A DNA stretch of 64,000 bases from Poseidonia sp. (GTDB lineage: Archaea; Thermoplasmatota; Poseidoniia; Poseidoniales; Poseidoniaceae), in NCBI GenBank assembly GCA_038118245.1, contig JAYOHN010000003.1, positions 923 to 64,922 on the forward strand, written 5' to 3'. The notes under the pieces are model-generated. The model did not search any database. It saw only the letters and a list, made by a program, of their open reading frames with translations, and was not told the DNA's origin. Of the stretch, positions 24,679 to 39,873 are shown in pieces; positions within the stretch are counted from its first letter, which is position 1, and every line of letters starts with the position of its first letter. The position numbers were made by a program, and so were the translations under genes.

Positions 24679-25935
24679 CTAGGACGTGATGTTGTGCTGG
24701 ACCTCGCTCGGTTCCGGGAGGGCGTTTTGCAAGGTATCGGCGACTTTGAGCTCATCCAATCGCCTTCCCTGCGGAAGCACACGGGACCGGTACGACCGTA
24801 GCGTATCGTTGTACGACGCAGCAGCCTTCTCCAGGTGCCCACCGACTTTACTGAAATGCTCCACCATCGTCGCCATTCGTTTGTAGAGTTCACGAGAAAC
24901 ATCGTAGATTTCCCGTGCCCCCTCAGCCAAGGCATGTTGTTGCCAGTACAAGGCAACGGTTCGCAACAAACCGAGCATCGTGACGGGTGTGGTGACCAAC
25001 ACGGCTTTGCTCATGGCGTATTCCATGAGGTCAGGGTCGACGTTGAAAGCGGCGGCCGCCATCGCCTCGCTGGGAACAAACATCACCACATGGTCAAAAT
25101 TTCCTTCAATGGACTCCTGGTAGGCTTTTGAACTGAGTTCAGCGATTCGGCCTCGCATACTCTTCGCATGGCGAATCAGCAATTCATCCTGGGCGGGACC
25201 CGGCTCGGCCTCAACCGCTTCGAGGTATTTTTCGCCGACCGCTTTTGAGTCGATGGGGATGACAGCCTCCTCCGGCAAAACAACGACAAAATCAGGTCGC
25301 AACCCGTTTTCAAGCGTCACCTGTTCCTTGAAGTTCACATGTTCGCTCAACCCGGCCATTTCAAACAAGCGTCGCAATTTCACCTCGCCCCAGTTGCCCC
25401 GTGCTTGACCGGAGGTGGTCAATGCCGTGGAGAGCGCAACGGTTCTGCTGGAGAGCGATTCGGTTTTTTCCCCCAATTCTTTGATGTTGCGGCGTAAACC
25501 TTCGTAGGCCCCCACCCGTTCTTTTTCCATCTCAGTGTTGTGGTTTTGAAGACGGACAAGTTCTTCTTTCAAGGGTTTGAGCAGATGTTCGACCTCTTGT
25601 TTTCGTGTTTCGAGTTCGTGACTAGCCTGTTGCTGGTTTCTTAGCCATCGTTCCTCGGCCATCTTGAAGAAATGCTCCGTGTTTTCAGCGCTCAAACGTT
25701 TCGAGAGCGCTTCAATTTCAGCCCTCATCCGTTGTTCATTGGCCTCCGATGTTGTTTCGCTTGCCCGCACCCGTTCCTCAGCACGGATGAGGTCGCCCGA
25801 TGTGGCTTGCCGACCAAGAACCCAGCCCAAGAAGCAACCAATCGCCAACCCAACGAGCAATAATCCGTACTCCGTCAAAACCGTCATGCCACCGAAATGT
25901 TGCCGACAGTATTTGATGAAATCGGGACGCATCAA
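24679..25935 (-). CDS. rmuC: DNA recombination protein RmuC
   Basis: N-terminal TM segment, a long coiled coil, then a PD-(D/E)xK-like core (RPDFVVVLPEEAVIPIDSKA) and FVPSEA. This is the RmuC family architecture. Confidence 0.85.
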   Translation of the reverse strand: MMRPDFIKYCRQHFGGMTVLTEYGLLLVGLAIGCFLGWVLGRQATSGDLIRAEERVRASETTSEANEQRMRAEIEALSKRLSAENTEHFFKMAEERWLRNQQQASHELETRKQEVEHLLKPLKEELVRLQNHNTEMEKERVGAYEGLRRNIKELGEKTESLSSRTVALSTALTTSGQARGNWGEVKLRRLFEMAGLSEHVNFKEQVTLENGLRPDFVVVLPEEAVIPIDSKAVGEKYLEAVEAEPGPAQDELLIRHAKSMRGRIAELSSKAYQESIEGNFDHVVMFVPSEAMAAAAFNVDPDLMEYAMSKAVLVTTPVTMLGLLRTVALYWQQHALAEGAREIYDVSRELYKRMATMVEHFSKVGGHLEKAAASYNDTLRSYRSRVLPQGRRLDELKVADTLQNALPEPSEVQHNITS

Positions 25936-28915: not shown

Positions 28916-28979
28916 CACTTTCACTTTCAATCTTAGGGTCTAACAAAACCAACTGGGCCCTCTTTCCGGTCAACGCGTC

Positions 28980-29249
28980 ATGGGACGAAGCGTGCCACCA
29001 TGGCGAACGCGTGTTGAACGTGAGATGGAGCGATGGCAGGCCTATCGGCGGGCGCTTTCAACCCCCGAACAAGCGGCATTGGACGCCCTGTTCGATGAAG
29101 TGCGCCAGCGGCGTGCTGCCGGGGGAATGCTGCCTTCGCTTGAGACATGGCACCCGATGGTGCTGAGCATGGCCGTGGGTTTGATGGTGCGAATCGGTCA
29201 GTTGGACCACCGGCTTTCCGCTCTTGAGGCGAGGCGAGTGGATGATTGA
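28980..29249 (+). CDS. small helical protein (89 aa) translationally coupled to polB, function unknown
   Basis: The ATG ORF has its stop inside ATGATTGA, which also holds the polB ATG (8-nt overlap). The protein is Arg/Ala-rich and predicted helical, with a short hydrophobic stretch (MVLSMAVGLMV). I recognise no family. Confidence 0.5.
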   Translation: MGRSVPPWRTRVEREMERWQAYRRALSTPEQAALDALFDEVRQRRAAGGMLPSLETWHPMVLSMAVGLMVRIGQLDHRLSALEARRVDD

Positions 29250-31701
29250 AGGCTGGCTGCTCGACGTTCATGAAAACACCCACCACTCCGGCATGGTGGC
29301 TTGGATTGTTGACGATGCTGGAGCGGCACACGCCTGCGAAATACCGTGGACGGCATCGCTTCATGTTCACGCATCGTCCGCCGACATGCAGCGTCTTGAA
29401 CACTGGCTGATGTTGCCTGAAATATCGGCTCGGTTCGGTGTTCTGAGCGTGGTCCGGAGGGCGATGCGCCTCGATTTGGAGAGCGAAGGTCGGACCTCGG
29501 TTCTGGAGGTGCGTATCGGGCCGTTCCACCACCTCAAGGCGCTTGCAGAACACATCGAGGCGAGAGGCGACTTTCACCGCTACACGTTGTATTCGGTGGA
29601 TGCACATTTGGTCCAGCGTTTTCTCAACGAACACGGCTGCGAACCGTTCGCAAAAGTTCGTTGGGATGCCGACGGCCCGATTCCTCTCCAGTCCGTTTCC
29701 ACCGACGGCGATGAAAGCGGACCACCGCTCTGCGTTGTTCAAATTGGCTTTACCTTCGCCTCGGCATCGTTTCCGTCGGTGAACGATGCCATCCAGCGCA
29801 TTGAGTTGCGCATCAACGAGGAGCCGGGTGTTCTCGCCTCGCCGCGCGCCGTTGTCGAGGCCACACTTGACCGCGACCTGTTTCCTTCTCTCGAAGCGTT
29901 CCTGCATGCCTTCGAAAAAGCGTTTCACGCCATCGATCCGGACGTGGTTTTGAGTTACGGTGGTGATCAGCGGCTGTTTCCGTGGTTGATTCATCAAAGC
30001 GAAGCGGCGGGTTCTTCGCTTCGTCTGGGCCGCTCGAACACCCCTCTGCGGCCGTCCACGCAAGCTCGGACCGTACGTTCATACGGCCACACGCTTCATC
30101 GTCACGCTGCCTTCTTCCTCGAAGGCCGTTTGCATTTGGACCTTCGCAACAGCTTCATCGTCAAGGAAGGCGGTGTTGCAGGGTTGCTTGAACTGGCGCA
30201 ACAATCGAGCCAGTCTGCTCAAGTGATTTCTCGCCTCTCTCCAGGTTCGGTGATCAGTGCCATACAGATGCGGGTGGCCATGGACGACGGCGTTTTGGTT
30301 CCGTGGAAAAAAAACCGCCCTGAAGACACGAAGTCCGCTCTTGAACTTCTTCACGCAGACCGCGGAGGGTTGTACCTTGACAGCCGTCCGGGCGTCTATT
30401 CCTCCGTGATTGAACTGGACTTCGCCAGCCTCTTTCCAAGCATCATCGCCACGCGCAACATCTCTCCAGAAACGCTCAACTGCACCTGCTGCCAGCCCCC
30501 AGAGCAACACGCCTCCAACGCCTTGGTCCCGCTTGAACCCGACGCAGCGGTGTCTGAATTTCAACGAAGGTACCGCCGCTCGGCGTTCGGGCACGGGCTG
30601 TTTCCGTTGGCCCATGAACAGGCGATGCGCGTGCCCGGTCTGTCCAGTTATACTTGCGGACGTCGTCACGGTTTTTTGGGTCGGGTCGTAGCGCCCATCA
30701 TTGAACGTCGGCGGCAACTCAAACGGCTGCGGACAGCCAAGGGCGATGCTTACGACCTTCGTCAAAACGCCTTGAAGTGGTTGTTGGTCACGTGCTTTGG
30801 TTACACGGGTTATCGCAACGCTCGGTTCGGACGAATTGAGGCCCATGAAGCGATTTGTGCTTGGTCGCGCGATATTTTGTTGACCACCATTGAAGAGGCT
30901 CAACAGGACGGCTGGGAGGTCTTGCACGCCATCGTTGATTGCGTCTGGCTCGTTGACCGCCGTCAACGAAGTCAATCTGAACAGCGCAACGACGCTGAAC
31001 GTTTCGCTGCGCGTGTTACCGAACGGGTCGGAATTCCTCTCGAGTTTGAGCAACATTACGATTTCATCGCTTTTCTTCCGAGTCGCGTACACGGTTCGGG
31101 TTCGCTCACAAAATACTGGGCCTACGGTGGAGGCGAGTACAAGGTTCGGGGCATTGAGTTGCGTCAGCATTCCACTCCGCCGTGGGTGCGTGACCTCCAA
31201 GAGAAGGGGCTGACGTTGTTGGCGACCGGTCACACGGATGCGGGCGTCCCCGGGCCGGAATCTCAACAACGTGTCTTCCAACTTTATCGCGCCGAACTCC
31301 AACGTTTCATGGACGGAGATGTGCCGCTCCATGCGTTGGTCATCGCCCGCCGAGTCACCTCCACATTGAACGATTACCGCGTGAAAAACCTCACCTATGC
31401 AGCGCTTCAGCGAGCACATCAACAGGGACAACACGTCCCGCCGGGGGGAAAGATCCGCTACGTGGTCATGGATTCCAGGGCCAATGAACCCCTTGACAGG
31501 GTGCTTCTCGCCGAAGAACTTCCGTCGACAGCCAACAACATCTCTGGGTGCTTCCAACACTATCAGCAACTCGCCGAACGAGCAGTATGGGCGCTTTTGG
31601 CTCCGTTCGGGTGGACGACCGAACGTCTGAACATGGAGGGGCAGCAAGCCACCCTTCTCGATTTTACCACTCGCCGTGATGGAGCGTCAATGCACCCGTA
31701 G
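29242..31701 (+). CDS. polB: family B DNA polymerase with degenerate exonuclease motifs and an atypical motif C
   Basis: Motif A LDFASLFPSII (DxxSLYPS). Motif B KWLLVTCFGYTGY (KxxxNSxYG with N>T, S>C, Y>F). KxY region TKYWAY...VRGIELRQHS. Motif C reads AIVDCVW instead of YGDTDS, so only one Asp remains. The Exo I position reads LCVVQIGF (no DxE), and Exo II reads YGGDQRLFPWL (no NxxxFD). Confidence 0.85.
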   Translation: MIEGWLLDVHENTHHSGMVAWIVDDAGAAHACEIPWTASLHVHASSADMQRLEHWLMLPEISARFGVLSVVRRAMRLDLESEGRTSVLEVRIGPFHHLKALAEHIEARGDFHRYTLYSVDAHLVQRFLNEHGCEPFAKVRWDADGPIPLQSVSTDGDESGPPLCVVQIGFTFASASFPSVNDAIQRIELRINEEPGVLASPRAVVEATLDRDLFPSLEAFLHAFEKAFHAIDPDVVLSYGGDQRLFPWLIHQSEAAGSSLRLGRSNTPLRPSTQARTVRSYGHTLHRHAAFFLEGRLHLDLRNSFIVKEGGVAGLLELAQQSSQSAQVISRLSPGSVISAIQMRVAMDDGVLVPWKKNRPEDTKSALELLHADRGGLYLDSRPGVYSSVIELDFASLFPSIIATRNISPETLNCTCCQPPEQHASNALVPLEPDAAVSEFQRRYRRSAFGHGLFPLAHEQAMRVPGLSSYTCGRRHGFLGRVVAPIIERRRQLKRLRTAKGDAYDLRQNALKWLLVTCFGYTGYRNARFGRIEAHEAICAWSRDILLTTIEEAQQDGWEVLHAIVDCVWLVDRRQRSQSEQRNDAERFAARVTERVGIPLEFEQHYDFIAFLPSRVHGSGSLTKYWAYGGGEYKVRGIELRQHSTPPWVRDLQEKGLTLLATGHTDAGVPGPESQQRVFQLYRAELQRFMDGDVPLHALVIARRVTSTLNDYRVKNLTYAALQRAHQQGQHVPPGGKIRYVVMDSRANEPLDRVLLAEELPSTANNISGCFQHYQQLAERAVWALLAPFGWTTERLNMEGQQATLLDFTTRRDGASMHP

Positions 31702-32449
31702 ATGGAGGCATGGTTCGGTTCCCAAATTCACGAGGTTGGAGTACAAAACGGGTCTGTCTGCGGTCAAGTTCTGGATCCCATCGGCCCTGAAGACCTGTTC
31801 GTGGATGGCGGAGGAATAGCTGACGTTGGCGTCTTGAACCCTGCCATTCTCCGAGCAGGTGATGGTCACAGCGAACGTGCAGGTGGCGAAGCAATCGGCC
31901 GAGGTGCGGTGTCCGAGCGCGTTGCTCCGTGATGATCACGACTGCCACACGGTGGTGCTGTGCAAGGCGTTGGAGCACACGAGCATGACGCTTGAGCAAG
32001 GTGCGCGATTCCAAGCGTTTGATGGCGTCGTCTTCGTGCATGGCCAGCAAACCGTCAACCACGATCATGGGTGAACGCGTCAGTTGAACTTCTTGTGACA
32101 AGCGTTCAATCTGCTTGTCCAGTTGATGGAGCGTGAACCCGCGACTGAGGTAAAGCCGAGCGAGGCAAGCTTCGGTATCGGCTTGCAACCGAGCAAGGGG
32201 GGCCAGGAGCCGAGAAGGGTCAATGCGGCAGGCGCCGTCAACCCAGTGGACCGTGTGGCCCGCAGCAAGAGCGTGGGCCACCCAATGTTCAGCAACGGGG
32301 CGCATCCCCCTTCCTGCATGGCCTGGCCCTGCTAGATGGTAGAGCATTCCCGGTTGGGGGTGGATGTCGTTGAGGTTGAGTTGGGGGGCAGGTCGCCGCA
32401 ACAACGGATGCGGGCATGCTTGGGCATTTTCGGTCTTCATGTCAATCAT
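31664..32449 (-). CDS. RecA-fold (ImuA/RadB-like) protein with a degenerate P-loop
   Basis: The order of elements is RecA-like. It starts with MLYHLAGPGHAGRGM (GxxxxGRG in place of GxxxxGKT) and TVHWVDG. Next come RLYLSRGFTLHQL and MIVVDGLLAM (Walker-B-like). It ends with LQRLAQHHRVAVVIITEQ and an Arg-rich C-terminus. The start was set at ATG 32449, with CGAGGA 6 nt upstream. The track start at 32593 would overlap dinB. Confidence 0.5.
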   Translation of the reverse strand: MIDMKTENAQACPHPLLRRPAPQLNLNDIHPQPGMLYHLAGPGHAGRGMRPVAEHWVAHALAAGHTVHWVDGACRIDPSRLLAPLARLQADTEACLARLYLSRGFTLHQLDKQIERLSQEVQLTRSPMIVVDGLLAMHEDDAIKRLESRTLLKRHARVLQRLAQHHRVAVVIITEQRARTPHLGRLLRHLHVRCDHHLLGEWQGSRRQRQLFLRHPRTGLQGRWDPELDRRQTRFVLQPREFGNRTMPPSTGALTLHHGEW

Positions 32450-32561
32450 TGACGGTCCTCGAACGAGGTCAACGTTCTTTTTGCAGACCCCTTTGTTGAA
32501 CTGATGCCCATCAAGTTGAAACACCGTGGACATGGATGATTTTACGCAGTGAGGGGTTGAT

Positions 32562-33674
32562 GTGGGTGGCGACGATGAACGGCGCATCATCATTCATTGT
32601 GATTTGGATGCCTTTTTTGCTGCCGTGGAGACGCTTCATCATGGCTTTGATGAGCGTGTGCCTCTGATCATTGGCTCCGATCCAAAACAGGGACGTGGCC
32701 GTGGCATCGTGTCGACCTGCAACTACGAGGCTCGTACCTATGGCATTCGTTCGGCGATGCCGATTTCTGAGGCATGGCGAAGATGCCCCGCCGTTCCCTT
32801 TGGTCCTGGACGGTACATACGAGGGACGCGCGGCTTGTACTCCCGTGCGAGTCGAAAAGTCATGCAGGTGCTGCGCCGACCCGCTGGAGCGTTTGAGAAA
32901 GCCAGCATTGATGAAGCCTACATGGACGTCACGGACGCCGTTGGAGGTGACTGGGATGCTGCCTTGGCACTGGCAAAATCGTTGCAGTCTGAAATTTACC
33001 AAACCCTGGGTTTGACCGCATCGTTTGGCATCGCATCAACGCGGGTCCTTGCAAAAATGTCCAGCGAGGTCAACAAACCCAACGGCATCCATCGTGTCTT
33101 GCCGGATGAGATTGAGGCGTTTTTTGCAGGGAGGTCGGTTCGTGAAATTCCCGGAATCGGTCCTAAACGCGCAACACAACTGGCTGAATGGGGGTACTCG
33201 ACGGCGGATGAATTGCAGGCCTTGGGTGAACTCTCGCTTGCGAGATTGGCGGGGGAACGGTTTGCATCGTGGTTTTTGAGCGTCGTTGAGGGCGAGAGCA
33301 GCGACATCGTGAGTCCTGTACGGAGCCGCAAATCCGTCGGCAAAGAGCACACGTTTGAGCACGATCAACACGACCACGAAGTCGTCCTCAAACGGTTGCT
33401 CGACTTGGTGGAACTTGTTCTTGACCGTGCGACGGTGTTGGGCGTCGCAGGACGGTTGGCGGAAGTGAAAATTCGATACACGGGCTTCGAAACCCATGCC
33501 TCCAGCCGAAGCATTCCCGTTGCAATGGACGATGCTGCCGTGTTCAAACGGTTAGCGGCCACTCTTTTCGCCAGCACGCTCGAGGCTGACCGAGGCGTTC
33601 GCCTTGTGGGCTTTCGCATGGGGCAATTGGAGGTGCCGCCGTCCCGCCAAACGACGCTGTTTGAGGAGGAATGA
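32562..33674 (+). CDS. dinB: Y-family DNA polymerase IV (DinB/Dpo4-like), catalytic residues intact
   Basis: IIHCDLDAFFAAVE and SIDEAYMDV (the catalytic Asp/Asp-Glu), then SFGIASTRVLAKMSS and IPGIGPK (HhH). The GTG start is preceded by GTGAGGGG. Confidence 0.9.
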   Translation: MGGDDERRIIIHCDLDAFFAAVETLHHGFDERVPLIIGSDPKQGRGRGIVSTCNYEARTYGIRSAMPISEAWRRCPAVPFGPGRYIRGTRGLYSRASRKVMQVLRRPAGAFEKASIDEAYMDVTDAVGGDWDAALALAKSLQSEIYQTLGLTASFGIASTRVLAKMSSEVNKPNGIHRVLPDEIEAFFAGRSVREIPGIGPKRATQLAEWGYSTADELQALGELSLARLAGERFASWFLSVVEGESSDIVSPVRSRKSVGKEHTFEHDQHDHEVVLKRLLDLVELVLDRATVLGVAGRLAEVKIRYTGFETHASSRSIPVAMDDAAVFKRLAATLFASTLEADRGVRLVGFRMGQLEVPPSRQTTLFEEE

Positions 33675-39300: not shown

Positions 39301-39364
39301 CCACGAGGCCACCCATGAGGTCATGGAAGCCGCTCTGCTCGACGACGTGGTTGATGCTTGGTAA
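36308..39364 (+). CDS. RND-superfamily exporter (COG1033/MMPL-like, two 6-TM bundles)
   Basis: Two TM clusters (about residues 370-520 and 860-1000), each preceded by a large soluble loop. Sterol-sensing/MMPL-like segments include GLPTLCAVFWTLG and LVTVMIGSILVGVGVDFSIHI. The start is ambiguous between TTG 36308 and ATG 36464. Confidence 0.75.
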   Translation: MLPKGWGGFLDSSDAPDNPSSSKGSGAVNRRLDALGSKSKAVRDQLSGQLKTMDSKKTLDAVLDAPKRFKREWQKSGATGAITRFPLPTVLVFLLLTVYFVTQSGFLDDTRFDDDPNNPALNVNGDLEVYLPDGSRVAELIGKVEEDWSTNVMVVYIESDKYNITDQRILQEISYVENILNPYLSDESDDVIYILSLSTVLKEVNSSAPRIREAVITEVGELGCSSNPEDDCLSRDFAENLNDAAATTDDRFGGAYEIPSQTTIDLVIGEMYEEDGSPTAGLNKLARDIEGAEDGEPDGLLDRGIMAVAVTENRPAKDIISDTQEILDAISSLERACRFDANGDPIESEGLCDWEDLGLSMILTGPVPITNAVTEFSFRLFWEIFPMAVVLVAIGLFVFHSDLLQTGLTGMRPLQGFKVVVIAGLPTLCAVFWTLGLIGATNYEVTMTVIIVGPILLALGVSYGLHITNRYAEEAGTRSEKMKASLSSTGKAVFLSAVTTVIGFISLVFTPMAPIQTVGIALSGGIVIVYILTMFMVPNLTLLLDLKKPKHPPLKAFDVLVDVPVKHNKAVIGTFVMLILLSATIGQANVEENIDLLGMAPEGESPVVKMKQYSKEFEAGQVGMILVNANVSGDFNDDDVSNDDPVEILEKINNLEASLNTVENTTAVSVVFLMKASGVQVTVSGEQVNELFQLVPCGGNDGCEDVKATAEVLFNQSASLDTSFWDLLTNPDDFNLPGSQQSQIFLLDVFYASLTKETREIFVSDDFSRSLIYVDMPFIPVADTSKSVDSVNEKAATFQGRYGETAEELTGVAATAIEVNELIVGSQWTSLGFAIILTLITLAVVFRDIRYSIWTTSPVIATVALQWLVMWRMDVPLSLVTVMIGSILVGVGVDFSIHIANRIRELGGGIQAIRSAAVGTGMSLFEAAVVTSLGMFTAYNIPIPEIQPFITVILILLWVAAASALVLLPAIFVTLEKMGIGAVSGSNSMAKKLGLISNHEATHEVMEAALLDDVVDAW

Positions 39365-39402
39365 GCGAGCATTCCATAGACCCCTTTGACCTCCGTACAT
39401 CC

Positions 39403-39873
39403 ATGAAGCACTGGCTCATGAAGTCGGAGTTGGATGTTTACCCGTATGAAAAATTGGTCGAAGACGGCCAGACCCATTGGGATGGCGTGCGCAACTACCA
39501 GGCAAGAAACATGATGCGGGACGACATGAAAGTCGGTGATTTGATTCTCTTCTACCATTCAAACACCAAACCACCTCACGTCGCTGGCGTGGCGAGGGTG
39601 GTGCGGGAGGGCTATCCCGATTTTACATCGTGGGACGAGACGAGCAAGTATTGCGACGAAAAATCGACGCCGGAAAACCCCCGATGGTTCATGGTCGACA
39701 TTGAACCGGTCCGTCCTCTCACCATGGTCTCGTTGGATGCCATGAAAGCTAACCCATCGCTCGAAGGCATGCCTTTGCTACGTCGAGGGCAGCGTTTATC
39801 GGTTCAACCGGTCGATGAAGCCCATTTCAACGAGGTGCTTTCCATGGCCGGCGTGTCTCGTGAGGACCTGTAA
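39403..39873 (+). CDS. EVE (PUA-like) domain protein
   Basis: MKHWLMKSE...HWDGVRNYQARNMMRDDMKVGDLILFYHSN...VAGVARVV is the EVE/DUF55 signature pattern. The start was trimmed to ATG 39403. Confidence 0.8.
   Translation: MKHWLMKSELDVYPYEKLVEDGQTHWDGVRNYQARNMMRDDMKVGDLILFYHSNTKPPHVAGVARVVREGYPDFTSWDETSKYCDEKSTPENPRWFMVDIEPVRPLTMVSLDAMKANPSLEGMPLLRRGQRLSVQPVDEAHFNEVLSMAGVSREDL

What the first reader, a model, noticed from the sequence alone, without database searches (positions are those of the whole stretch)
28980..33674. Candidate archaeal translesion/mutagenesis cassette: small ORF - exo-degenerate PolB - RecA-fold protein with dead P-loop - DinB
Four adjacent genes form one tight unit. An 89-aa ORF is coupled to a family-B polymerase through an ATGATTGA overlap. 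A convergent RecA-fold gene has a 3' end that overlaps the polB 3' end by 38 nt. A catalytically intact Y-family polymerase is transcribed divergently from the RecA-fold gene across a 112-nt spacer. In bacteria the established damage-inducible mutasome is ImuA (RecA/SulA-like with a degenerate ATPase site), ImuB (Y-family) and DnaE2/ImuC (an error-prone replicase paralog). This locus has the same three-component logic. The differences are that a proofreading-deficient PolB occupies the DnaE2 position and the Y-family member still has its catalytic acids. I do not know of a described archaeal counterpart, so functional linkage is inference from adjacency and motif state only.
Basis: partly seen in the sequence, partly recalled or inferred. 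Interest (0 to 1): 0.8.

Follow-up and report, generated by a model that had tools for sequence, protein, structure and literature searches.

The report
Known archaeal PolB2 mutasome beside DinB
This locus is the already-described archaeal damage-tolerance polymerase module (a small helical protein, a proofreading-dead family-B polymerase and an inactivated RadA) in a marine Poseidonia-type genome. The adjacent DinB polymerase is an ordinary neighbour whose position is conserved only in this one family, not a fourth subunit.

Summary
The first three genes are the published PPB2 (arCOG07300/DUF8156)–PolB2–iRadA "PolB2 mutasome" (Makarova 2014; Timinskas 2025). PPB2 starts MGRSVPPWR, matching the published MGRT arm. 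PolB2 has IVD in place of DTD, a decayed exonuclease domain and the ADRGG motif. iRadA models as a Rad51/RadA core without the N-terminal domain. A syntenic Poseidonia ortholog (my L020) was itself modelled as a heteropentamer in the 2025 paper, so "no described archaeal counterpart" is wrong.

DinB is catalytically intact Pol IV. It is adjacent in all 38 Poseidoniaceae genomes, but so are a 2-hydroxyacid dehydrogenase, a tRNA synthetase and an MMPL transporter. In two other genomic contexts the convergent trio is present without DinB. DinB is therefore a lineage-specific neighbour, although inserter/extender cooperation is plausible.

Small additions: a conserved tandem ANTTTC-like box (ACTTTCACTTTCA-N6-GGGTCT) precedes both PPB2-PolB2 and iRadA. 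Most orthologs keep Walker-A GK[ST], so the "dead P-loop" is clade-specific. PolB2 and DinB both carry conserved C-terminal PIP-like motifs.

The module is already known; interest is low to moderate.

The parts
28916..28949 (+). Conserved promoter/regulatory box of the PPB2-PolB2 unit: CACTTTCACTTTCA (28916-28929), N6, GGGTCT (28936-28941), then an A-rich element
   Evidence: Near-invariant in 32 orthologous intergenic regions while the rest of the spacer drifts. TTTCASTTTCA occurs once in the 64 kb window, against 0.15 expected. The sequence was checked.
28980..29249 (+). PPB2 (arCOG07300 / Pfam DUF8156), 89 aa, small helical subunit with an N-terminal MGRS arm
   Evidence: Always 89 aa in Poseidoniaceae, with MGRSVPxWR invariant. 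Homologs carry precomputed PF26485 = DUF8156. The profile finds 570 representative clusters, with MGRT(V/I)P..R N-termini in the proteins sampled, and iRadA-PPB2 fusions. The model shows an N-terminal arm followed by helices.
29242..31701 (+). PolB2, 819 aa: exonuclease-dead family-B polymerase. Motif A is at 30415-30441, motif C HAIVDCV at 30925-30945, ADRGG at 30352-30369 and the C-terminal PIP-like QATLLDF at 31645-31665.
   Evidence: Motifs B and C closely resemble the published PolB2 sequences shown.
31664..32449 (-). iRadA, 261 aa: Rad51/RadA core without the N-terminal domain. The Walker A remnant GPGHAGRG is at 32306-32329 and DGACR (catalytic Glu replaced by Ala) at 32225-32239.
   Evidence: Pfam Rad51 7.7e-8. 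The profile hits RadB/Rad51/DMC1 in PDB at 7e-5. The AlphaFold model has pLDDT 83.6. Foldseek finds RAD51/DMC1/RadA at E about 1e-11, probability 1.0.
32477..32525 (-). Conserved elements of the iRadA promoter inside the 112-nt iRadA-DinB spacer: distal GGTGTTTCAACTTGATG and proximal TCAGTTCAAC-N4-GGGGTCTGCAAAAAG
   Evidence: Alignment of 35 spacers. In other lineages the proximal element is literally ACTTTCACTTTCA-N6-GGGTCT.
32562..33674 (+). DinB / Pol IV (Dpo4-type Y-family polymerase), catalytically intact, with a conserved C-terminal RQTTLFEEE. It is a neighbour, not a core part of the module.
   Evidence: NF002677 scores 267 bits against a 256-bit cutoff. DLDAFFAAVE and SIDEAY are conserved in the ortholog alignment. 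DinB is absent next to the trio in type-B and type-C loci.

Best explanation
Genes 28980-32449 encode the known archaeal PolB2 mutasome in its Poseidoniales layout (PPB2-PolB2 on one strand, iRadA convergent). By homology with the published models, a PPB2 trimer inserts one conserved N-terminal arm (MGRS...R9) between PolB2 and iRadA near the DNA. iRadA docks on PolB2 through a Rad51-oligomerisation-like beta-alpha segment just before the ADRGG motif. The catalytic subunit lacks proofreading and has IVD instead of DTD. By analogy with Sulfolobus Dpo2, the complex extends primer ends past lesions and mismatches, and here it is probably tethered to PCNA through the conserved QxxLLxF motif at the PolB2 C-terminus. 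The neighbouring DinB is a separate, ordinary Pol IV/Dpo4-type enzyme. Its adjacency is a family-level (Poseidoniaceae) feature of synteny. It may supply the inserter step and share a divergent control region with iRadA, but it is not part of the conserved module.

What is shown: gene identities, motif states, the iRadA fold, synteny and the conserved upstream boxes. What is inferred: complex formation, extender activity, PCNA binding and damage induction.
For: Literature: define the trio and its signatures. One search shows Poseidonia sp. MBL6742770-2 modelled as PolB2 + iRadA + 3x PPB2 (model scores of about 0.83-0.84). Its PolB2 N-terminal sequence, as quoted in that file, matches my syntenic ortholog L020.

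PPB2: MGRSVPxWR is invariant and R3 and R9 are present. Distant relatives start MGRTVPTWR. The family is DUF8156. A profile search recovers the wider MGRT family and iRadA-PPB2 fusions.

PolB2: IVD is invariant in 34 of 34 orthologs, ADRGG is conserved, the Exo II Asp is lost, and there is a roughly 45-aa deletion where Exo III lies.

iRadA: Rad51 fold, with the catalytic Glu replaced by an invariant Ala.

Unit of conservation: the convergent trio appears in three different genomic contexts, and only one has DinB. In Table S1 of the 2025 paper, IMS is present in 46 of 95 group-3b operons, alongside 2-Hacid_dh 45, tRNA-synt_1 42 and orc1/cdc6 0.

Function of the family: Dpo2 is damage-inducible, solely responsible for targeted mutagenesis, acts as an extender and cooperates sequentially with Dpo4 in vitro.

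Shared cis-box upstream of both transcription units.
Against: No experiment exists for any Poseidoniales member. I could not run complex modelling for the window's own proteins. Foldseek with the PPB2 monomer model found nothing significant, so the reported sigma-factor-like fold was not reproduced. iRadA sits on the opposite strand, unlike most published operons, so the three genes are not one transcript. Most Poseidoniaceae iRadA keep Walker-A GK[ST], so nucleotide binding is not excluded. DinB adjacency is perfectly conserved in 38 species-level genomes and the spacer is short and highly conserved, so a functional tie to DinB cannot be dismissed.
Confidence: 0.85

Rival explanations
1. The locus is a loosely coupled inserter/extender pair. 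DinB and the PolB2 mutasome are co-regulated through the conserved divergent iRadA-DinB control region and act sequentially on PCNA: DinB inserts opposite the lesion and PolB2 extends. The adjacency in Poseidoniaceae is therefore functional.
For: Dpo4 and Dpo2 act sequentially on abasic sites in vitro. The mBio paper raises a two-polymerase scheme as an open question. DinB is adjacent and divergent in all 38 Poseidoniaceae loci plus L041, L042 and L044. The roughly 100-125-nt spacer is densely conserved, and in the L041-type lineage it holds the exact box. Both polymerases carry conserved C-terminal Q-x-x-L motifs.
Against: Unrelated housekeeping genes are conserved as neighbours to the same degree (Table S1). 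The trio lacks DinB in type-B and type-C contexts. In Sulfolobus, dpo4 is not damage-induced and is dispensable for targeted mutagenesis. The box reads in the iRadA direction.
Confidence: 0.25
2. One reading: a four-component cassette that is the archaeal counterpart of bacterial ImuA-ImuB-DnaE2, with DinB as an integral adaptor or subunit.
For: There is a formal similarity: a RecA-fold protein with a defective ATPase, a Y-family polymerase and an error-prone replicase paralog sit side by side.
Against: DinB is catalytically intact and scores above the Pol IV equivalog cutoff, unlike the catalytically dead ImuB. The polymerase is family B, not C. iRadA is Rad51/RadA-type, and no ImuA family appeared among its NCBIfam hits at E of 1 or better. 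The published complex needs PPB2, which has no Imu equivalent. DinB is absent from the trio elsewhere.
Confidence: 0.05
3. The trio is a non-catalytic or regulatory complex (the older 'inactivated polymerase' view), for example acting in replication-fork or origin regulation rather than DNA synthesis.
For: Makarova 2014 proposed this on the basis of disrupted catalytic motifs. IVD replaces DTD and the exonuclease motifs are gone.
Against: Sulfolobus Dpo2, with IID at the same position, is a robust polymerase and the sole source of targeted mutagenesis. Motif A, motif B and the second Asp of motif C are invariant here. No orc1/cdc6 gene lies nearby.
Confidence: 0.05
4. The region is a recently acquired island or mobile element carrying repair genes.
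For: GC is slightly raised (0.578, z = 2.0) and tetranucleotide distance is z = 1.7.
Against: The region ranks only 5 of 60 windows. Synteny with housekeeping flanks is perfect across a whole family. No integrase, repeats or tRNA gene at the borders turned up in the annotation.
Confidence: 0.02

Closest known systems
PolB2 mutasome: PPB2 (arCOG07300) - PolB2 - iRadA operon (Makarova, Krupovic and Koonin 2014, PMC4104785; Timinskas, Timinskas and Venclovas 2025, PMC11791011), operon group 3b
   Same: All three gene families are present, in the order PPB2-PolB2-iRadA. The shared features are the MGR(T/S) N-terminal arm with R3 and R9, IVD/IID in place of DTD, the D(K/R) motif, the decayed exonuclease domain and a RadA core without its N-terminal domain. 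Poseidoniales operons are in the published dataset, and one syntenic ortholog was modelled as a heteropentamer.
   Different: iRadA is convergent with an overlapping 3' end rather than co-directional. The clamp-binding-like motif is on PolB2, which the paper reports as the rarer case. Most family members keep Walker-A GK[ST]. No orc1/cdc6, SRAP or DUF72 gene is nearby, whereas DinB is.
Sulfolobus islandicus / S. solfataricus Dpo2 (PolB2) with Dpo4 (PMC7390963, PMC8764526, PMC8721586) and its Orc1-2/ANTTTC damage regulon (PMC6061795)
   Same: The polymerase subfamily and motif lesions are the same. A Dpo4/DinB homolog is present in the same genome. A tandem ANTTTC-containing box lies roughly 50-60 nt upstream of the start codon (the Sulfolobus element lies at -23 to -55).
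   Different: The Poseidoniales PolB2 is full length (819 aa) and keeps an exonuclease-domain scaffold. DinB is adjacent here but not in Sulfolobus. No experiment exists here, and no Orc1-2 gene is in the window. The match of the box to ANTTTC is a resemblance, not a tested identity.
Eukaryotic Pol zeta (Rev3-Rev7 plus accessory subunits) working with Y-family inserters
   Same: A family-B polymerase without proofreading, multi-subunit, acting as an extender after a Y-family inserter. draw this parallel.
   Different: The accessory subunits are unrelated (Rev7, Pol31 and Pol32 against PPB2 and iRadA). This is a functional analogy only.
Bacterial ImuA(')-ImuB-DnaE2 mutasome
   Same: Both follow a three-part logic in which a RecA-like protein with a defective ATPase accompanies an error-prone replicase paralog, and both relate to damage tolerance.
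   Different: The catalytic subunit is family B, not C. The Y-family member here is an active stand-alone Pol IV, not a dead adaptor. The RecA-fold protein is Rad51/RadA-type. PPB2 has no counterpart in the Imu system.
E. coli Pol V (UmuD'2C-RecA)
   Same: A polymerase binds a RecA/Rad51-family protein through an oligomerisation-like motif, and a small subunit inserts an N-terminal arm near the active site.
   Different: The catalytic subunit is Y-family and uses active RecA. The small subunits are unrelated and the stoichiometry differs.

Membership tests
PolB2 mutasome (PPB2-PolB2-iRadA) | PolB2: the first Asp of the DxD (DTD) polymerase motif is replaced (IID/IVD) while motif A and the second Asp are kept | tested here: met
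   HAIVDCV aligns to Pab PolB YIDTDG and is invariant in 34 of 34 orthologs. Published PolB2 rows show HGIVDS/HGIIDS.
PolB2 mutasome (PPB2-PolB2-iRadA) | PolB2: the proofreading exonuclease active site is lost or decayed | tested here: met
   Pfam exo1 scores only E = 0.089. Exo II YNGDNF(D)FPYL is replaced by YGGDQRLFPWL. About 45 residues are missing where Exo III lies. No invariant acidic pair is found in the Exo I region among orthologs. Placement of Exo I relies on my recollection of the Pfu sequence.
PolB2 mutasome (PPB2-PolB2-iRadA) | PolB2: a conserved D(K/R) motif preceded by the iRadA-binding beta-alpha segment | tested here: met
   ADRGG lies at aa 372-376 and the DR is conserved in all orthologs (one has an ambiguous residue there). 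The preceding roughly 50 residues are almost invariant. The binding role itself was not testable.
PolB2 mutasome (PPB2-PolB2-iRadA) | PPB2: a helical protein of about 90 aa with the conserved N-terminal MGRT arm and Arg3/Arg9 | tested here: met
   The window protein starts MGRSVPPWR, and this is invariant. MGRTVPTWR is found in more distant Poseidoniales. The profile recovers 570 representative clusters; the sampled members begin MGR(T/S/A) (one MGKT), and the set includes iRadA-PPB2 fusions. Homologs are assigned DUF8156. The model is helical with a free N-terminal arm.
PolB2 mutasome (PPB2-PolB2-iRadA) | PPB2: a sigma-factor-N-domain-like fold and a trimeric coiled coil | tested here: inconclusive
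   The monomer model (pLDDT 79) gave no PDB match with E below 3. The oligomeric state cannot be tested with these tools. One ortholog has a weak, sub-threshold hit to the matrilin trimeric coiled-coil family.
PolB2 mutasome (PPB2-PolB2-iRadA) | iRadA: a Rad51/RadA ATPase-core fold lacking the N-terminal helical domain | tested here: met
   The protein is 261 aa, with the core starting at about residue 30.
PolB2 mutasome (PPB2-PolB2-iRadA) | [quoted passage not shown] | tested here: met
   The window protein has GPGHAGRG (Lys replaced by Arg, Ser/Thr by Gly) and DGACR, where Rad51 and RadB have DTEG. Caveat: 26 of 37 orthologs keep GK[ST]. The universal lesion is the Glu-to-Ala change.
PolB2 mutasome (PPB2-PolB2-iRadA) | The three genes are adjacent, usually co-directional in one operon | tested here: met
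   The genes are adjacent and PPB2-PolB2 are translationally coupled. iRadA is convergent, so co-directionality is not met. The published group 3b (PPB2-PolB2-iRadA order) contains the Poseidoniales operons. I could not see the paper's Fig. 2 to confirm that 3b denotes the inverted iRadA.
PolB2 mutasome (PPB2-PolB2-iRadA) | Heteropentamer formation, DNA-damage induction and extender activity | not testable with these tools
   Multimer modelling and expression data were unavailable. A published model exists for a syntenic ortholog.
ImuA-ImuB-DnaE2 mutasome | ImuB: a Y-family fold lacking the catalytic acidic residues | tested here: not met
   DinB has DLDAFFAAVE and SIDEAY conserved in the ortholog alignment and passes the Pol IV equivalog cutoff.
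ImuA-ImuB-DnaE2 mutasome | DnaE2/ImuC: a family-C polymerase paralog | tested here: not met
   The polymerase is family B.
ImuA-ImuB-DnaE2 mutasome | ImuA/ImuA': a bacterial RecA/SulA-type protein of the ImuA family | tested here: not met
   The best matches are Rad51, RadB, DMC1 and RadA. No ImuA model appeared among the NCBIfam hits at E of 1 or better.
DinB / Pol IV (Dpo4-type Y-family polymerase) | IMS plus IMS_C domains, the catalytic Asp/Asp/Glu triad, and a score above the equivalog cutoff | tested here: met

The most novel reading that the evidence does not exclude
Poseidoniales run a damage-response regulon through a tandem ANTTTC-type box (ACTTTCACTTTCA-N6-GGGTCT, 39-40 nt before the start codon). 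This box drives both convergent halves of the PolB2 mutasome and at least one further gene (a 165-aa ORF next to a TFB gene). In Poseidoniaceae it sits in a bidirectional spacer that also controls DinB. If so, the Sulfolobus Orc1-2/ANTTTC logic would extend to a mesophilic, sunlit-ocean euryarchaeal lineage. It would also give the first genomic evidence for a co-regulated Y-family inserter and PolB2 extender pair in archaea.
Probability: 0.15. Interest if true: 0.55.

Novelty: already known. Interest (0 to 1): 0.25.

Why it matters
The main value is corrective. What looked like an undescribed archaeal mutasome is the published PolB2 mutasome, and members from this very lineage are already in the literature. 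It still matters modestly. Marine Group II archaea are abundant in sunlit surface water, and this is probably their damage-induced mutagenic bypass machinery. The strictly conserved DinB neighbour, the shared upstream box and the PIP-like tails on both polymerases give concrete, testable handles (metatranscriptomes, reporter assays, multimer models). These bear on an open question raised by the Sulfolobus work: whether PolB2 cooperates with a Y-family inserter in vivo, and how it is regulated outside Crenarchaeota.

Tried and rejected
I rebuilt the alignments from database hits.
- Foldseek of the PPB2 monomer model against PDB found nothing significant, so the reported sigma-factor similarity could not be reproduced.
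- The local Pfam copy lacks PF26485, so the small ORF had no local hit. The name DUF8156 came from precomputed annotations. A literature search for the accession found nothing.
- The bacterial sigma-70 and intrinsic-terminator scan is irrelevant to an archaeon and uninformative.
- I looked for an Orc1/Cdc6 regulator in the window and found none.
- A composite box search in the window with up to 3 mismatches gave no more hits than chance apart from the PPB2 site.
- The horizontal-transfer idea was rejected. The compositional deviation is only mild and synteny is family-wide.
- The idea that the box is a terminator of the upstream dehydrogenase gene was rejected, because the same box precedes iRadA, where no co-directional gene lies upstream.
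- A literature search for Poseidoniales together with TLS terms listed no paper on this lineage's locus among its top results.

Full report
**Observation.**
- 28980-29249(+) encodes 89 aa.
- A family-B polymerase starts at the ATG at 29242 and ends at 31701 (819 aa).
- A RecA-like gene lies on the minus strand at 31664-32449 (261 aa; the open frame extends to 32593, but conservation begins at 32449).
- A DinB gene starts at the GTG at 32562 and ends at 33674.

The ATGATTGA start/stop overlap, the 38-nt convergent 3' overlap and the 112-nt divergent spacer are all real.
- DNA_pol_B scores 1.3e-22, while the exonuclease domain reaches only E = 0.089.
- Rad51 scores 7.7e-8.
- DinB scores above the curated Pol IV cutoff.

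**What the first three genes are.** A literature search led directly to two papers. Makarova, Krupovic and Koonin 2014 described a conserved predicted operon of PolB2, which has disrupted polymerase and exonuclease centres. Its partners are an uncharacterised ~90-aa helical protein (arCOG07300) and an inactivated RadA. Timinskas et al. 2025 renamed the partners PPB2 and iRadA. They modelled a PolB2 + iRadA + 3x PPB2 heteropentamer and listed diagnostic features. I tested each feature.

*PPB2.*
- The window ORF begins MGRSVPPWR. All 36 orthologs recovered from related genomes are exactly 89 aa, with MGRSVPxWR invariant. This matches the published MGRT arm with Arg3 and Arg9.
- More distant Poseidoniales copies read MGRTVPTWR.
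- Database homologs carry Pfam PF26485, which is DUF8156.
- A profile of the orthologs searched against 1.84 billion representatives found 570 clusters. These are mostly 80-120 aa. Fifteen were retrieved: the twelve stand-alone proteins begin MGR(T/S/A), apart from one MGKT. The other three are longer proteins in which a RecA-like domain precedes an internal MGR(T/S) or VGRS, which are the published iRadA-PPB2 fusions.

*PolB2.* Alignment to Pyrococcus abyssi PolB and to 33 orthologs shows:
- motif A LDFASLFPS and motif B KWLLVTCFGYTGY intact;
- motif C HAIVDCV, that is IVD for DTD, invariant in 34 of 34;
- ADRGG, the D(K/R) motif;
- Exo II YGGDQRLFPWL, which lacks the catalytic Asp;
- about 45 residues missing where Exo III lies.

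The motif B/C block closely resembles the published PolB2 rows from Thermoplasmata and haloarchaea.

*iRadA.*
- An ortholog profile hits RadB, Rad51 and DMC1 in PDB.
- An AlphaFold model (pLDDT 83.6) matches RAD51, DMC1 and RadA at E about 1e-11 and probability 1.0.
- The protein lacks the N-terminal domain.
- The catalytic Glu of the DTEG segment aligns to an invariant Ala (DGACR).

*Direct link to the published models.* The 2025 supplement lists Poseidoniales operons in group "3b (PPB2-PolB2-iRadA)". It includes a heteropentamer model for Poseidonia sp. MBL6742770-2. The PolB2 sequence quoted there matches my syntenic ortholog L020 over the stretch shown. The trio is therefore not merely similar to a known system. 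It is a member whose close relatives are already in the published dataset.

**Is DinB part of it?** A scan of species-representative genomes returned 38 loci, essentially all labelled Poseidonia, Poseidoniaceae or Poseidoniales, or by broader archaeal names. One contig (L026) is labelled Verrucomicrobiales. PolB2 identity is 53-83%. Wherever the contigs extend far enough, these loci share one nine-gene order:

metallo-beta-lactamase, membrane protein, 2-hydroxyacid dehydrogenase, PPB2, PolB2, iRadA(-), DinB, class-I tRNA synthetase(-), MMPL transporter.

But it recurs no more than the unrelated flanks do.
- The 2025 paper's Table S1 tells the same story for group 3b. Of 95 operons, IMS is present in 46, 2-Hacid_dh_C in 45, tRNA-synt_1 in 42 and Lactamase_B in 32. 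IMS accompanies only 10 of the roughly 1,700 other operons, and orc1/cdc6 appears in none of group 3b.
- I then looked at PolB2 homologs of 48-52% identity.
  - L041, L042 and L044 keep the window-type synteny with DinB.
  - L039, L040, L043 and L045 have the same convergent DUF8156-PolB2/iRadA trio between Peptidase_M28 genes.
  - L046 and L047 have the trio next to a PRC-domain gene.
  - None of these last six loci has an IMS gene within 6-8 kb.

The unit that travels is the convergent trio, and DinB adjacency is a Poseidoniaceae feature. The convergent 3' overlap of PolB2 and iRadA is conserved: 9-167 nt (mode 62) in 36 of the 37 loci where both gene ends could be read. The exception is L030, whose PolB2 ORF is interrupted. 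Type-B loci show about 60 nt.

**Mechanism.**
- Shown here: identities, motif states, the iRadA fold and synteny.
- Inferred from the family: a PPB2 trimer inserts one N-terminal arm between PolB2 and iRadA near the DNA, and iRadA docks on the PolB2 segment before ADRGG.
- Inferred from Sulfolobus: the enzyme is a damage-induced extender of mismatched or lesion-adjacent primer ends. Dpo2 is the only damage-induced polymerase there and the sole source of targeted mutagenesis. It extends what Dpo4 inserts at abasic sites.
- Two local details fit a PCNA-based hand-off. PolB2 ends with a conserved QxxLLxF (TLFDFF in other Poseidoniales). DinB ends with a conserved RQTTLFEEE.
- DinB as the inserter is therefore plausible. 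However, in Sulfolobus dpo4 is neither induced nor needed for targeted mutagenesis, so partnership is a hypothesis and not a finding.

- The dead P-loop (GPGHAGRG) is real in the window and four close relatives. Elsewhere 26 of 37 orthologs have canonical GxxxxGK[ST], and others have GA, GG or GD at the Lys position. Type-B and type-C proteins also keep the Walker-A Lys (GK[SN]). The family-wide lesion is the lost catalytic Glu, so nucleotide binding without hydrolysis is conceivable in most species.
- The polymerase is not only proofreading-deficient. Its DTD motif is altered as well, which is the PolB2 hallmark.

**Regulatory boxes (not in the papers I read).**
- The PPB2 upstream region starts, right at the stop codon of the dehydrogenase gene, with CACTTTCACTTTCA-N6-GGGTCT followed by an A-rich element (window 28916-28949). 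This block is near-invariant in 32 loci while the rest of the spacer drifts.
- The iRadA upstream region (minus strand of the 112-nt spacer, 32477-32525) has the same layout in degenerate form: TCAGTTCAAC-N4-GGGGTCTGCAAAAAG, plus a distal GGTGTTTCAACTTGATG.
- In other lineages the iRadA box is literally ACTTTCACTTTCA-N6-GGGTCTAACAAAGG (L041) or TTTTCACTTTCAC (L039, a locus without DinB). The two convergent transcription units therefore share one cis-element.
- TTTCA[CG]TTTCA occurs almost only at these two positions in 710 kb of fetched sequence, and once in the window against 0.15 expected.
- An exact scan of 241 million metagenome records for the 19-base composite gave 59 stretches:
  - 25 lie upstream of PPB2 (one truncated);
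  - 3 lie upstream of iRadA;
  - 12 lie 40 nt upstream of a conserved 165-aa ORF of unknown function, which follows a TFB gene in L063;
  - about 19 fall into roughly 8 unrelated loci, about what chance predicts.
- The box contains two tandem ANTTTC hexamers, the Orc1-2-bound damage-response element of Sulfolobus, which lies at -23 to -55 from the ATG. That is a resemblance only. The hexamer is short and no Orc1/Cdc6 gene lies in the window.

**Context and horizontal transfer.** The window is ordinary chromosome. It encodes SAICAR synthetase, Rpb7, RtcB, AlaRS, NUDIX, RmuC, SHMT, topoisomerase I and DHODH. The region's GC (0.578, z = 2.0) and tetranucleotide distance (z = 1.7, rank 5 of 60) are unremarkable.

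**Comparison and verdict.**
- The locus is a member of the PolB2 mutasome family. All sequence-level defining features are met. Co-directionality is not met, but the published group 3b covers the Poseidoniales operons.
- It works like Sulfolobus Dpo2 and, more distantly, like Pol zeta with a Y-family inserter.
- It is not a member of the ImuA-ImuB-DnaE2 family. DinB is catalytically intact Pol IV, the polymerase is family B, and iRadA is Rad51-type.
- Novelty: already known.
- Residual interest lies in the Poseidoniaceae-specific DinB adjacency (counted but not discussed in the 2025 supplement), the shared ANTTTC-like box and the retained Walker A in most iRadA.

Noticed in passing
window 28916-28949 (+) and 32477-32525 (-); L041 around 11269 (-); L039 around 11169 (-): A conserved tandem box ACTTTCACTTTCA-N6-GGGTCT followed by an A-rich element lies 39-58 nt upstream of both PPB2 and iRadA start codons across Poseidoniales. 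It contains two ANTTTC hexamers, like the Sulfolobus Orc1-2 damage-response element. I did not find it described in the papers I read.
   Followed up: yes
L063 8132-8694 (also L058, L059, L065, L069, L076, L077, L082, L091, L094, L098, L105): The same box with the same spacing (40 nt to the ATG) precedes a conserved 165-aa ORF (MRQLRTVIRSM...). It has only weak, sub-threshold beta-propeller hits. In L063 it lies directly downstream of a TFB (TFIIB-family) gene on archaeal marine contigs of about 0.44 GC. It may belong to the same regulon. It is not encoded in the window.
   Followed up: partly
window 32306-32329 (-) and orthologs in L001-L037: The iRadA Walker A is polymorphic. 26 of 37 species-level orthologs keep canonical GxxxxGK[ST], while the window clade has GPGHAGRG and others have GA, GG or GD at the Lys position. 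The catalytic Glu position is Ala in all (DGACR).
   Followed up: yes
window 31645-31665 (+) and 33645-33671 (+): PolB2 ends with a conserved PIP-like QxxLLxF (TLFDFF in other Poseidoniales). DinB ends with a conserved RQTTLFEEE. Both are candidate PCNA-binding tails. The coding sequence of the PolB2 motif abuts the overlapping iRadA stop codon.
   Followed up: partly
window 24679-25935 (-): An RmuC-family (DNA recombination) gene sits between the NUDIX and metallo-beta-lactamase genes, 3 kb upstream of the module. tblastn detected it in 22 of the related loci. In several others (for example L007-L012, L033, L037) it is absent and NUDIX abuts the lactamase gene.
   Followed up: partly
L030 7001-8788: In one close relative (Poseidonia sp. 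SFB_27S, 83% identity) the PolB2 reading frame is interrupted after about 517-595 codons. This is either an assembly error or a pseudogene.
   Followed up: no
L026 (NZEQ01000045.1); P0139: A contig labelled 'Verrucomicrobiales bacterium' and a protein labelled 'Candidatus Woesearchaeota archaeon' carry this Poseidoniaceae locus or PolB2 at 66-69% identity. These are probably binning or taxonomic mislabels in public MAGs.
   Followed up: no
window 31664-32593 (-): Public gene calls for the identical iRadA sequence differ in start (213, 261 or 289 aa). The 289-aa and 309-aa versions would run into the conserved promoter boxes or the DinB start. Conservation supports 261 aa.
   Followed up: partly
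window 39358-39873 (+): An EVE-domain gene follows the MMPL transporter. Its position is conserved in distant window-type loci (L041, L042, L044).
   Followed up: no
window 30490-30520 and about 30650-30665 (PolB2 aa 416-420 and about 471-473): A conserved cysteine cluster (LNCxCCQ, then HTCGR about 50 residues later) lies between motifs A and B of PolB2. It may be a metal site. I did not compare it with other PolB2 groups.
   Followed up: no
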